From: an uncultured Gammaproteobacteria bacterium
Lineage (GTDB): Bacteria; Pseudomonadota; Gammaproteobacteria; JACCXJ01
Direction: 5' to 3'
Length of the DNA: 64,000 bases
Assembly: GCA_963764725.1 (NCBI GenBank)
Contig: CAVXTM010000009.1
Coordinates: forward strand, 64,001-128,000
Translations under genes and position numbers: made by a program
Shown: positions 23,194 through 24,470 of the stretch, piece after piece
How the letters are laid out: every line of letters starts with the position of its first letter
Position numbering within the stretch: position 1 is the stretch's first letter
Notes under the pieces: generated by a model
What the model saw: only the letters and a program-made list of their open reading frames with translations
Told to the model about the DNA's origin: nothing
Database searches by the model: none

Positions 23194-23204
23194 CCCGCCG
23201 GGAG

Positions 23205-24384
23205 AGCAACCGTGTTCAAAGTCAAGTGTTTTGCAGCTGCCAAGGGGCATTATTTTTCAACATGGCATTCATAATGGTCAGCAGTTTCCGCATACAGGCG
23301 ACGATCACCACTTTGGCTGGTTTCCCCGCCTGTTTGAGTCTCTCAGCGAAGGCCTTGAGGACAGAGTTGCACCGGATGGCGGTAACGGTCGCCATATACA
23401 GAACGGCTCTGACATCGGCCCTGCCGCCCCAGATGAAGCGCTTACCCCGGTGTTTTCCGCTGTCGTTCGCCAGCGGCGCCACGCCCACCAAAGCTGCGAT
23501 CTCGCGGCGATTCAAGCTGCCGAGTTCCGGGCACTTAGCCAGCATCGTCAAGCTGGTGACGGCGCCGATACCAGGAATGCCTTGCAGCAGATCATCCTTA
23601 GCCCGCCAGGCCTCGGAGGCGCGCAAGCGTTTGGTCAAATCAACGTCGAGATCAGCAATGCGCTTATCCAGCCAAGCGATGTGCGCCACTAAGCTTTTGC
23701 GTGGCAGTTTCGAGGCCGTGCCTAAACGGAGTGTTTCTTGAACGCGTATCTCGATCAATTGACGGCGCCGCGTCAGGAGTTCATCAAGCTCACGGGTGTC
23801 CGCGTCCTTGATAGGTCGCACCGCAGGCCGGATGGCGCGGGCGAAGGCCGCCAGGACGGCGGCGTCAACCGAGTCGGTCTTCGCCAATTCTCCCGTCGCC
23901 TTGGCGAAATCGCGCGCTTGACGGGGATTGATGACGGCGAGGGGCAATCCTTTCGCCGCCAGTTCACTGGCCAGCCGCACTTCCAGGCCGCCTGTGGCTT
24001 CCATAACGATCAACGTCGGTCCAACGGCCACCAGACGCTTGACGAGTTGAGCGATGCCCTTGTCGTCATAAACGACACGCAGGGCTTCTCCAGTGGGTTC
24101 AATACCAATATCCAACGTGCCTTTGGACACATCAATGCCAACAAACTTCTCTACAGTGTTCTCGCTCATACCCCTCCTTGCAAAAATACGGGCTTACAGG
24201 CCCCAGCAACCGTTCGGGTTGTCGGTGAGAAAACGGCGCGACGCTCTTTGCTCTCCCACGGGCTTGATGTCCCAAGGGCTGGACGAGCTGCCGCACCGCA
24301 ACCAAAGGTCTGTGGATTGATGCCCACCAGCCCCCACAGTCCGAAATACATTTTCATTAATTTCTACAAAATAGAACATACAAG
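23205..24384 (-). mobile_element. IS110-family (IS621-like) bridge-recombinase element; recombinase CDS 24169-23222
   Basis: VGIDVSK, MEATGG, KTD..DA (DEDD), IPGIG, SGK catalytic serine; AG/CT core duplicated at 23205-23206 and 24383-24384; ~210-bp noncoding left end. Confidence 0.95.
24172..24345 (-). ncRNA. Predicted IS110 bridge RNA (ends approximate)
   Basis: In minus-strand order: LTG UCCAGCCCU (24283-24275), RTG GGGAGAG (24257-24251), LDG ACGGUUGCU (24213-24205), RDG UGCAAG (24182-24177). These match target CCCAACC-CT-CTCCC and donor ACGGTTG-CT-TGTA. Confidence 0.85.
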
Positions 24385-24470
24385 GGTTGGGGTGAGGGGA
24401 TCAGAATACTCGAAGCATGTGTTTGATTTGATTCCCCTCATCCTAACCTTCTCCCGGAGGGAGAAGGGAC
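24385..24470. repeat. REP doublet; the first unit is split by the IS50-like and IS110 insertions (other pieces at 21619-21634 and 23194-23206)
   Basis: Reassembled tccctctcccg-nn-gggagagggttggggtgagggga faces intact tcccctcatcctaaccttctcccggagggagaagggac (24433-24470). Confidence 0.85.

What the first reader, a model, noticed from the sequence alone, without database searches (positions are those of the whole stretch)
23194..24400. IS110 bridge-recombinase with a fully readable bridge RNA programmed against the host REP
Seen in sequence (minus strand): the element is bounded by a duplicated CT core. Removing it restores target CCCAACC-CT-CTCCC, which is the REP stem. Joining its ends gives donor ACGGTTG-CT-TGTAT. 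The ~210-nt noncoding left end carries four guides in the order expected for a bridge RNA: UCCAGCCCU (left target, 7/9 identical), GGGAGAG (exact reverse complement of core+right target), ACGGUUGCU (exact left donor+core) and UGCAAG (right donor, one wobble). Established: IS621-type IS110 recombinases use such two-loop RNAs, and IS621 targets REPs with a CT core. Inference: this is an intact RNA-programmable recombinase ortholog (315 aa) with its own target and donor specificity, aimed at the CCCTCACCCCAACCCTCTCCC REP class.
Basis: partly seen in the sequence, partly recalled or inferred. Interest (0 to 1): 0.85.

Follow-up and report, generated by a model that had tools for sequence, protein, structure and literature searches.

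The report
REP-targeting IS110 element with bridge RNA
This is an intact small mobile element of the IS110 family whose own non-coding RNA carries short guide sequences matching both the host's repeated palindromic sequence where it inserts and the element's own joined ends, which makes it a well-supported but ordinary example of a known RNA-guided recombinase.

Summary
Window 24382..23205 (minus strand) is a 1,178-bp IS110-group insertion sequence: a 213-nt non-coding left end, a 315-aa DEDD/Ser recombinase and a 17-nt right end, flanked by a duplicated CT. They lie in two internal loops closed by helices with compensatory changes, 13 of 23 pairs.

In 21 relatives plus this element, both target guides change together with the flanking DNA: 0 of 20,000 shuffles reached the observed match. 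The left donor guide follows changes in the right end 1 kb away. The genome holds six copies. All six right junctions and five of six left junctions lie at the same CT of one REP subtype. A same-genus genome has the orthologous site empty, with a single CT.

The five catalytic residues of IS621 are conserved. NCBIfam already names the protein "IS110 family RNA-guided transposase".

RNA expression, the circular form and guide dependence were not shown.

This is a new member of a known kind, of modest interest.

The parts
24383..24391 (-). Left target half (CCCAACC) plus the left copy of the CT core, inside a type-A REP
   Evidence: same position in 5 of 6 genomic copies
24170..24382 (-). Left end (LE), 213 nt non-coding, encodes the bridge RNA
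   Evidence: covariance model R1 hit at 143.6 bits over G000:C9:88167-88307 = window 24167-24307
24375..24380 (-). TATGTT, the -10 half of a promoter completed only when RE and LE are joined
   Evidence: TTGACT, 17 nt, TATGTT in the joined ends; TATnnT at this place in 18 of 19 relatives
24310..24339 (-). 5' stem-loop (CUGUGG...CCACAG), variable in size between copies and relatives
24234..24298 (-). Target-binding loop: outer helix, 5' guide, inner hairpin, 3' guide
   Evidence: outer helix of 12 pairs, 9 with compensatory changes
24275..24283 (-). Left target guide UCCAGCCCU
   Evidence: 7 of 9 identical to the left flank plus core; the other two positions can form U-G and G-T wobbles
24251..24257 (-). 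Right target guide GGGAGAG
   Evidence: exact complement of CT+CTCCC; also identical to the start of the REP's own 3' arm
24249..24250 (-). CA next to the right target guide, in the position of the target-loop handshake guide
   Evidence: complementary to donor positions 6-7 (TG) and not to target positions 6-7 (CC); the handshake concept is
24170..24220 (-). Donor-binding loop: outer helix AACCC/GGGGU, 5' guide, inner hairpin, 3' guide; overlaps the ribosome-binding site GGAGG
   Evidence: outer helix of 4 pairs, 3 with compensatory changes
24205..24213 (-). Left donor guide ACGGUUGCU
   Evidence: identical to RE 23213..23205; positions 1-8 equal the right end in 21 of 21 elements, including G>A (5 loci) and T>C (1 locus) co-changes
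24177..24182 (-). Right donor guide UGCAAG
   Evidence: pairs with CT+TGTA through one G-T wobble; the right donor is invariant in relatives, so no covariation test was possible
23222..24169 (-). Recombinase gene, 315 aa: DEDD RuvC-like domain plus Tnp domain with serine
   Evidence: D13, E57, D99, D102 and S237-G238 align with IS621 D11, E60, D102, D105 and S241-G242
23220..23225 (-). TTGACT, the -35 half of the split promoter; overlaps the stop codon
   Evidence: TTGAnn at this fixed distance in 17 of 19 relatives
23205..23213 (-). Left donor (ACGGTTG) plus the right copy of the CT core; end of the 17-nt right end
23194..23204 (-). Right target CTCCC plus REP loop remnant GGCGGG, then cut by the neighbouring IS4-family element

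Best explanation
Window 24382..23205 (minus strand) is an intact copy of an IS110-group insertion sequence that moves by bridge-RNA-guided recombination of the kind shown for IS621.

**Inferred cycle**
1. The element excises as a circle.
2. Joining the right end to the left end creates the donor site ACGGTTG-CT-TGTAT.
3. The same join assembles a promoter (TTGACT, 17 nt, TATGTT) that drives the left-end RNA and the recombinase gene.
4. The RNA folds into two internal loops.
   - Loop 2 pairs in the same way with the donor (guides ACGGUUGCU and UGCAAG).
5. The DEDD/Ser recombinase exchanges strands at the shared CT. This inserts the element into the 5' arm of REP hairpins of the class CCCTCAC-N7-CT-CTCCC-loop-GGGAGAGGG.

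**Shown here**
- The anatomy of the element.
- The RNA fold, by covariation.
- Co-variation of the guides with target and donor.
- The recurrent, precise insertion site, with an orthologous empty site.
- Conserved catalytic residues.
- Several identical copies.

**Inferred**
- Transcription of the RNA.
- The circular intermediate.
- RNA dependence of recombination.
For: **Protein**
- Pfam DEDD_Tnp_IS110 (E 4.9e-22) and Transposase_20 (E 8.3e-18).
- NCBIfam NF033542 "IS110 family RNA-guided transposase", 203 bits against a cut-off of 140.
- The best solved relatives are ISCro4 (E 1.7e-40) and IS621 (E 1.1e-34).
- D13, E57, D99, D102 and S237-G238 align with the IS621 catalytic residues (residue roles).

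**RNA fold**
- I aligned 22 left ends.
- RNAalifold leaves all four guides unpaired between helices.
- For the structure I named, 93.5% of cells pair, against 86.0% in shuffles and 32-47% when the 3' partners are slid.
- 13 of 23 pairs show compensatory changes, against 4.5 +/- 1.4 in shuffles; 0 of 500 shuffles reach this.

**Guides against flanks in relatives**
- Left target guide, non-core positions: 78 of 119 match, against 49.4 +/- 4.2 with shuffled partners (17 elements).
- Right target guide: 92 of 120 match, against 46.0 +/- 5.4 (20 elements).
- 0 of 20,000 shuffles reached either value.
- Some elements match over all 8 positions with quite different targets: L024 and L026.
- Left donor guide positions 1-8 equal the right end in 21 of 21 elements. 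This includes a G>A change in 5 loci and a T>C change in 1 locus, each seen in both places.

**Insertion site**
- There are six copies in the genome.
- All 6 right junctions are ...ACGGTTG-CT|CTCCC.
- 5 of 6 left junctions are CCCTCAC-N7-CT|TGTATG.
- In G003, 7 of 7 right junctions read abut CTCCC-loop-GGGAGAGGG.
- The site orthologous to copy C18:199148 is empty in G003, with the flanks contiguous and one CT.
- A contig of run X1 joins the right end to the REP at C15:228925, which is empty in this genome.

**Recent activity**
- Two copies are 100% identical over all 1,186 bp. Two more are 100% identical over the parts that align (1,161 and 1,123 bp).

**Split promoter**
- It is present in the joined ends, and its -35 half is conserved in 17 of 19 relatives.
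- No sigma-70-like site was found in the integrated element.

**Core selectivity**
- By my classification of the 30 REP hits, 14 empty REPs have a CT core and 16 have TT at that place.
- All 5 REP-borne left junctions are of the CT type.

**Independent model hit**
- The covariance model built from the alignment found a second, different element at C11, which was not in the training set. Its own guides match its own non-REP flanks at 8 of 9 and 7 of 8 positions.
Against: **No direct sign of activity**
- Laying contigs of four runs gave no joints, and so no circle junction. Contigs from RNA libraries cannot prove transcription.

**Single-sequence fold is not special**
- The z-score is -0.84; 41 of 200 shuffles fold at least as well. 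The minimum-energy fold also pairs part of the two target guides with each other.

**No database support**
- Rfam gave no match. I do not know whether Rfam holds a bridge-RNA family.

**The left target guide fits imperfectly**
- In this genome it matches its own sites at only 4-5 of 7 non-core positions.
- No site in the genome matches the ideal 14-mer exactly. The single one-mismatch site, a non-REP site on C2, is unoccupied.
- In relatives, guide position 1 shows no signal and position 2 little.
- Some relatives fit poorly: L012, L017, L022 and L023 match at 2-3 of 7 positions.

**Imperfect copies**
- One of six copies has a non-REP left junction without CT.
- Two of six copies have the recombinase frame split.

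**Limits of the statistics**
- The relatives are kin and are not independent, so the shuffle counts are not probabilities.
Confidence: 0.92

Rival explanations
1. The element recognises the REP through its protein, or through the REP hairpin structure alone. The left-end RNA would then be only a 5' leader of the recombinase mRNA, for example one that masks the ribosome-binding site, and the guide-like matches would be incidental.
For: The GGAGG ribosome-binding site lies inside the 3' strand of the donor-loop helix, so the same RNA could regulate translation. A preprint reports that a target stem-loop adds specificity for ISPpu10. The right target and core lie in the REP stem here.
Against: Relatives insert into quite different, non-REP sequences, and both target guides change with them. 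The left donor guide tracks right-end changes 1 kb away. A second element in the same genome has guides matching a non-REP site.
Confidence: 0.03
2. The element is a genuine bridge-RNA insertion sequence by descent, but it no longer moves in this genome. The copies would be relics spread by past activity or by recombination between REPs.
For: Two of six copies have a split recombinase frame. One has its left end interrupted by a 1,045-bp insertion. One has an aberrant left junction. No circle junction was seen in contigs.
Against: Two copies, the window's among them, are complete and 100% identical, and a third differs only in the first 63 nt of its left end. Sites differ in occupancy between this genome, G003 and run X1. 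All catalytic residues and guides are intact.
Confidence: 0.05

Closest known systems
IS621 of Escherichia coli (IS110 group; bridge RNA; PDB 8wt6 and others)
   Same: - Two-domain DEDD/Ser recombinase with all five catalytic residues aligned.
- Long left end that encodes an RNA with a target-binding and a donor-binding internal loop.
[quoted passage not shown]
- CT core, and a -35 box supplied by the right end.
- A dinucleotide in the handshake position complementary to the donor.
I saw only that REPs are cited as IS targets (reference 11) and that REPs are called long-recognised IS110 targets.
   Different: - A distant protein relative: E 1.1e-34, 123 bits over residues 9-311.
- Different guides, target and donor.
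- The effective left target guide in this clade seems shorter: positions 1-2 of the 9 carry little or no signal.
- The right donor guide is separated from the inner hairpin by about 6 extra nucleotides and uses a G-T wobble conserved in most relatives.
- Activity is untested.
ISCro4 transposase (PDB 9t56)
   Same: It is the best-scoring solved relative: E 1.7e-40, 142 bits over residues 8-311.
   Different: I saw only the protein match. Its RNA and target were not compared here.
ISPpu10 and ISPpu9 of Pseudomonas putida (IS110 family, REP-targeting)
   Same: Both insert into REP sequences. ISPpu10 duplicates a CT dinucleotide, and its REP targets often occur as convergent pairs (section 7 read). 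ISPpu9 is reported in REPs in seven copies (abstract in the listing only).
   Different: For ISPpu10 the conserved stem-loop lies 5' of the cut and involves the left target. Here the core and right target lie in the 5' arm of a hairpin that extends 3' of the cut. The proteins and RNAs were not compared.
IS1111 group of the IS110 family (seekRNA type)
   Same: It has the same DEDD recombinase family.
   Different: IS1111 elements have short left ends, long right ends and long sub-terminal inverted repeats (passage). This element has a 213-nt left end and a 17-nt right end.

Membership tests
IS110 family, IS110 group (IS621-type bridge recombinase) | Recombinase with a DEDD RuvC-like domain and a Tnp domain carrying the catalytic serine | tested here: met
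   Pfam PF01548 and PF02371. NF033542 at 203 bits against a cut-off of 140. D13, E57, D99, D102 and S237 align to IS621 D11, E60, D102, D105 and S241 (the PDB chain numbering is +2 relative to the paper's).
IS110 family, IS110 group (IS621-type bridge recombinase) | Long non-coding left end and short right end | tested here: met
   The LE is 213 nt and the RE is 17 nt.
IS110 family, IS110 group (IS621-type bridge recombinase) | Precise insertion at a 2-bp core present once in the empty site and on both sides of the element | tested here: met
   CT lies on both sides in 5 of 6 copies. The orthologous empty site in G003 has one CT.
IS110 family, IS110 group (IS621-type bridge recombinase) | Left-end RNA with two internal loops closed by conserved helices | tested here: met
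   RNAalifold and pair counts on 22 sequences: 13 of 23 pairs have compensatory changes, and 0 of 500 shuffles reach this.
IS110 family, IS110 group (IS621-type bridge recombinase) | Loop 1 guides complementary to the target and co-varying with it | tested here: met
   78 of 119 and 92 of 120 non-core matches, against 49.4 and 46.0 in partner shuffles; 0 of 20,000 shuffles reach either. Per-position signal at LTG positions 3-6 and RTG positions 3-7.
IS110 family, IS110 group (IS621-type bridge recombinase) | Loop 2 guides complementary to the joined RE-LE donor | tested here: met
   LDG positions 1-8 equal the RE in 21 of 21 elements, with co-changes in 5 loci (G>A) and 1 locus (T>C). Position 9 is equal in 15 of 21. 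The RDG pairs with one wobble, but the right donor is invariant, so covariation could not be tested.
IS110 family, IS110 group (IS621-type bridge recombinase) | Promoter assembled across the RE-LE junction | tested here: met
   TTGACT, 17 nt, TATGTT in the joined ends; the -35 half is kept in 17 of 19 relatives. No such site was found in the integrated state. This is a sequence match only.
IS110 family, IS110 group (IS621-type bridge recombinase) | Circular excised intermediate | not testable with these tools
   No joints were found in contigs of 4 runs. Contigs drop rare forms.
IS110 family, IS110 group (IS621-type bridge recombinase) | The RNA is expressed and required for recombination | not testable with these tools
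   Contigs of two RNA libraries cover parts of the element, including 24211-24322 without a difference. That shows presence only.
IS1111 group (seekRNA) | Short LE, long RE that encodes the RNA, sub-terminal inverted repeats of 7-17 bp | tested here: not met
   The LE is 213 nt and the RE is 17 nt. The RNA model hits lie upstream of the gene.

The most novel reading that the evidence does not exclude
The host REP family may be split by a single base into a permissive subtype (core CT) and a refractory subtype (TT at the same place, with a matching A in the 3' arm). The two often sit as inverted pairs. The bridge RNA inserts only into the CT subtype, although three TT-type REPs fit the other guide positions completely. 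This could be a natural case of core-dinucleotide gating, possibly of REP escape from its parasite. The element may also remodel the chromosome at half-matching sites: one copy separates two tandem copies of a ~190-bp tRNA-Val segment and has a non-REP, non-CT left junction.
Probability: 0.2. Interest if true: 0.45.

Novelty: new member of a known kind. Interest (0 to 1): 0.3.

Why it matters
- **A ready substrate for bench work.** It adds one fully annotated natural bridge-RNA system whose target, donor, guides, handshake position and split promoter can all be read from sequence. Six genomic copies, empty paralogous sites and one empty orthologous site serve as internal controls. This suits anyone collecting diverse bridge recombinases or studying how REPs and IS110 elements coexist.
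- **A natural contrast in core sequence.** The genome holds about equal numbers of CT-core and TT-core REPs. A recombination assay could use this to measure core selectivity.
- **No change to the mechanism.** It alters nothing about how the mechanism is understood. The family is already named as RNA-guided in NCBI's annotation models.

Tried and rejected
**Rfam.** A scan of 22000-26000 at E up to 1 found nothing. I cannot tell whether a bridge-RNA family exists in that release.

**Single-sequence folding.** It was uninformative (z -0.84), and the fold partly pairs the two target guides with each other. I relied on the comparative structure instead.

**Reads.** All 24 runs offered are kept as contigs. 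Laying X1, X2, X15 and X16 gave no joints, so nothing can be said about a circle.
- RNA-library contigs cover 23328-24322 in pieces in X16 and four 151-nt pieces in X15. One X16 contig over 24211-24322 has a higher depth figure than the contigs over the gene.
- The tool states that such depths cannot rank parts and that DNA may be present in these libraries, so I draw no conclusion on expression.
- The X2 loose end at 23200 was not found in this genome.

**Wobble idea.** I asked whether G and U in the guides are placed to tolerate REP variants.
- Among transition mismatches, the left guide has 11 wobble-compatible against 2 incompatible.
- The right guide has 4 against 6.
- Combined, 15 of 23 are compatible (p = 0.21). 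The idea is not established.

**Ideal-site scan.** The 14-mer that both target guides would fit perfectly does not occur in the genome. There is 1 site with one mismatch, 34 with two and 248 with three. Simple mismatch counting over all 9+5 positions therefore does not predict occupancy. Positions 1-2 of the left guide probably do not count.

**CT against TT REPs.** The counts are 5 occupied and 14 empty with a CT core, against 0 occupied and 16 empty with TT. They come from my own reading of the 30 regex hits and 5 occupied half-sites. The regex for occupied sites could not have found a TT-core insertion, but all six copies were found by BLAST and their flanks were read directly. By my arithmetic the one-sided Fisher probability is about 0.04, which is weak.

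**Loci left out.** Of the 66 loci, I looked at the 23 that had upstream sequence or a near-complete gene. I aligned 21 of them with the window.
- L030 was dropped because it is the same element as L027.
- L037 was dropped because it is 35% identical and has no recognisable left end.
- The other 43 are fragments at contig ends and were not analysed.

**Unpublished genomes.** The tally (14 of 31 genomes with a match) includes the unpublished genomes G001, G002, G005, G007-G010, G012 and G014. No specific claim here rests on them. The junction and empty-site claims rest on G003.

**Not done.**
- Supplementary files of the papers were not consulted. Durrant et al.'s supplementary lists of predicted bridge RNAs may already contain this element or close relatives.
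- No literature search was made for this particular element. The only search was.

**What I saw of each paper.**
- PMC11208160 and PMC11208158: passages found by term.
- Preprint 10.64898/2026.03.19.712850: abstract, outline and section 7.
- All other papers: the listing only.
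Full report
**What is there.** On the minus strand, window 24169..23222 is a 315-aa open reading frame.
- It carries the two Pfam domains of IS110-family recombinases: DEDD_Tnp_IS110 (E 4.9e-22) and Transposase_20 (E 8.3e-18).
- NCBIfam places it in NF033542, "IS110 family RNA-guided transposase", at 203 bits against a cut-off of 140.
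- The closest solved structures by sequence are ISCro4 transposase (9t56, E 1.7e-40) and IS621 transposase (8wt6, E 1.1e-34).
- In the printed alignment to IS621, D13, E57, D99, D102 and S237-G238 stand opposite the residues that the structure paper calls D11, E60, D102, D105 and S241-G242. The deposited chain is numbered two higher than the paper.
- Upstream of the gene lie 213 non-coding bases (24382..24170). Downstream lie only 17 (23221..23205). A long left end and a short right end mark the IS110 group rather than the IS1111 group.

**Boundaries and target.**
- The left flank reads ...CCCTCACCCCAACC-CT, followed by TGTATG.
- The right end reads ...ACGGTTG-CT, followed by CTCCCGGCGGG.
- The genome of the window (19 contigs, 4.2 Mb) holds six copies.
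- All six right junctions are ACGGTTG-CT|CTCCC, followed by a REP loop and 3' arm where these are preserved.
- Five of six left junctions are CCCTCAC-N7-CT|TGTATG.
- For the copy at C18:199148-200333, the orthologous place in a same-genus genome (G003, contig 268) is empty. The two flanks are contiguous there and read CCCTCACCCTAGCC-CT-CTCCCAGTGGGAGAGGG, with one CT.
- In G003, all seven right junctions I read abut CTCCC-loop-GGGAGAGGG. Four belong to a 95-96% identical element and three to a 77-78% identical one.
- A contig of run X1 joins the right end to the REP at C15:228925, which is empty in this genome. X1 may be the sample the genome came from, so this shows a difference in occupancy, not independent replication.

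**The RNA.** I took the left ends of 21 relatives (41-82% protein identity, from 66 loci found) and aligned them with the window's.
- RNAalifold predicts the following, in order:
  1. a long outer helix;
  2. an internal loop with a small inner hairpin;
  3. a single-stranded linker;
  4. a second, shorter outer helix;
  5. a second internal loop with a near-identical inner hairpin.
- For the structure I wrote down from this (23 pairs), 93.5% of cells pair, against 86.0% in column shuffles and 32-47% when the 3' partners are slid.
- 13 pairs carry compensatory changes, against 4.5 +/- 1.4 in shuffles; 0 of 500 shuffles reach this.
- All four guides lie on the unpaired sides of the two loops:
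  - UCCAGCCCU directly 5' of inner hairpin 1, and GGGAGAG one base 3' of it;
  - ACGGUUGCU directly 5' of inner hairpin 2, and UGCAAG on its 3' side.
- This is the published layout. [quoted passage not shown]
- The single-sequence fold alone is not significant (z -0.84), and Rfam gives no match.

**Do the guides specify the sites?** In relatives the flanks differ widely, and the loop-1 guides differ with them.
- L024's right guide implies CTTGGGGA, and its flank reads CTTGGGGA.
- L026's implies CTGCCCCA, and its flank reads CTGCCCCA.
- L020's implies CTTCAAGA, and its flank reads CTTCAAGG.
- L027's left guide CAGATTCCT equals its left flank at 9 of 9 positions.

| Guide (non-core positions) | Observed matches | Shuffled partners | Shuffles reaching it | Elements |
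|---|---|---|---|---|
| Left target guide | 78 of 119 | 49.4 +/- 4.2 | 0 of 20,000 | 17 |
| Right target guide | 92 of 120 | 46.0 +/- 5.4 | 0 of 20,000 | 20 |

- The elements are kin, so the counts overstate independence.
- By position, the signal sits at left-guide positions 3-6 and right-guide positions 3-7. Left-guide position 1 carries none.
- The left donor guide equals the last bases of the right end at positions 1-8 in 21 of 21 elements. Where the right end has A for G (5 loci) or C for T (L036), the guide 1 kb away has the same change.
- The right donor is invariant, so the right donor guide could not be tested by covariation.
- The two bases after the right target guide (CA) are complementary to donor positions 6-7 (TG) and not to the target's (CC). 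The invariant G after the right donor guide can pair with the invariant C at target position 7. This fits the "handshake" bases described for IS621.

**Expression logic.** In the joined ends, TTGACT (23225..23220, overlapping the stop codon) and TATGTT (24380..24375) lie 17 nt apart.
- The -35 half is kept at that distance in 17 of 19 relatives, and TATnnT in 18 of 19.
- No sigma-70-like site is found in the integrated element.
- IS621 likewise has the -35 box of its natural promoter in the right end.
- These are consensus matches, not evidence of function.

**Fit to this genome's REPs.** REPs with the CCCTCA tail come in two kinds, by my classification of the 30 hits.
- 14 empty ones have CT at the insertion point and a GGGAGAGGG 3' arm.
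- 16 have TT there and a GGGAGAAGG arm.
- The two kinds often sit as inverted neighbours. One example lies in the window, where the TT-type REP starts near 24441.
- All five REP-borne left junctions are of the CT kind.
- Three TT-type REPs can pair at all seven other left-guide positions (5-6 by identity, the rest by wobble) and match the right target exactly, yet are empty.
- This agrees with the strong preference for pairing at both core bases reported for IS621. The numbers are small.

**Evidence against a simple picture.**
- The left guide matches its own occupied sites at only 4-5 of 7 non-core positions.
- The one site in the genome within one mismatch of the ideal 14-mer is empty.

**State of the copies.**

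| Copy | State |
|---|---|
| Window copy (C9) | complete; 100% identical to C18:199148 over 1,186 bp |
| C18:199148 | complete; 100% identical to the window copy |
| C18:73686 | identical from position 64 on, but with a diverged, enlarged 5' part of the left end |
| C10:250158 | identical, but its left end is split by a 1,045-bp insertion |
| C18:332583 | recombinase frame split |
| C10:194790 | recombinase frame split |

**Verdict.** The element works like IS621. On every defining feature that sequence analysis can test, it is a member of the IS110 group of bridge-RNA recombinases.
- The RNA itself, the circle and guide dependence remain to be shown at the bench.
- It is a new member of a known kind. 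The mechanism, REP targeting and the CT core are published, and thousands of such RNAs were predicted in 2024.
- The interest is modest.

Noticed in passing
window 21635-23193 (+): An IS4-family element of 1,559 bp, with Tnp_DNA_bind and DDE_Tnp_1 domains. Its ends start CTGACTCTTATAC and CTGTCTCTTGATC, which I recall as resembling IS50 ends. It sits in the loop of the same REP that carries the IS110 element. Each end abuts CCCTCTCCC-loop-GGG. The two 9-bp flanks, CCCGGTGGG and CCCGCCGGG, agree at only 7 of 9 positions. Another copy at C10 abuts a REP in the same way. The 885-aa ORF 20515..23172 in the ORF list is an over-extension of its transposase.
   Followed up: partly
G000:C18:332375-334000 (locus L005): The copy at C18:332583-333771 has a non-REP left junction without CT (...GGTGCGGT|TGTATG). 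It lies between two tandem copies of a ~190-bp segment, each holding a tRNA-Val(GAC). An intact empty REP lies before the first copy, and a REP right half lies after the element. This looks like a duplication made by recombination at the element's left end. Its recombinase frame is split.
   Followed up: partly
G000:C18:74780-75010: The copy at C18:73686-74899 starts with 8 nt of normal left end, then CT, then a second left-end start that is 86% identical over 63 nt and has an enlarged 5' stem-loop. The rest is 100% identical to the window copy. It looks like a mosaic or nested event at the CT that lies at left-end positions 9-10.
   Followed up: no
G000:C10:249079-250160: The left end of the copy at C10 is split by a 1,045-bp insertion. 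The insertion has terminal inverted repeats and a 9-bp duplication (TTAATGAAA). A different IS110-family gene lies about 1.4 kb upstream (C10:247262).
   Followed up: no
G000:C11:178000-179850; C2:154598-154738; C5:113506-113644: The covariance model found three further bridge-RNA-like left ends. The one on C11 belongs to a second, intact IS110 element. Its own guides fit its own non-REP flanks: the left guide TTGCGTCCT against the flank TTGCATCCT, and the right guide implying CTCGGCGG against the flank CTCGGCGC. The one on C2 is a 5' remnant of a similar element, cut off about 190 nt into the gene. The one on C5 precedes a decayed gene. Five other PF01548 hits (two on C16, and one each on C1, C8 and C10) have no model hit.
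   Followed up: partly
window 24435-24475 and genome-wide: REPs come as inverted pairs of a CT-core type and a TT-core type, with the 3' arm changed to match (GGGAGAGGG against GGGAGAAGG). Contigs of all four laid runs pile up on the TT-type REP of the window, with many different loose ends. This fits a dispersed repeat.
   Followed up: partly
G000:C18:197967-198118 (L001 positions 320-471): A stretch of about 150 bp near copy C18:199148 matches dozens of places at 82-96% identity in each of the same-genus genomes G003, G004 and G006. It is a dispersed short repeat of unknown kind.
   Followed up: no
window 24542-24859 (+): The gene next to the element's left side encodes a 105-aa DUF2007 protein (PF09413, E 1.9e-14).
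   Followed up: no
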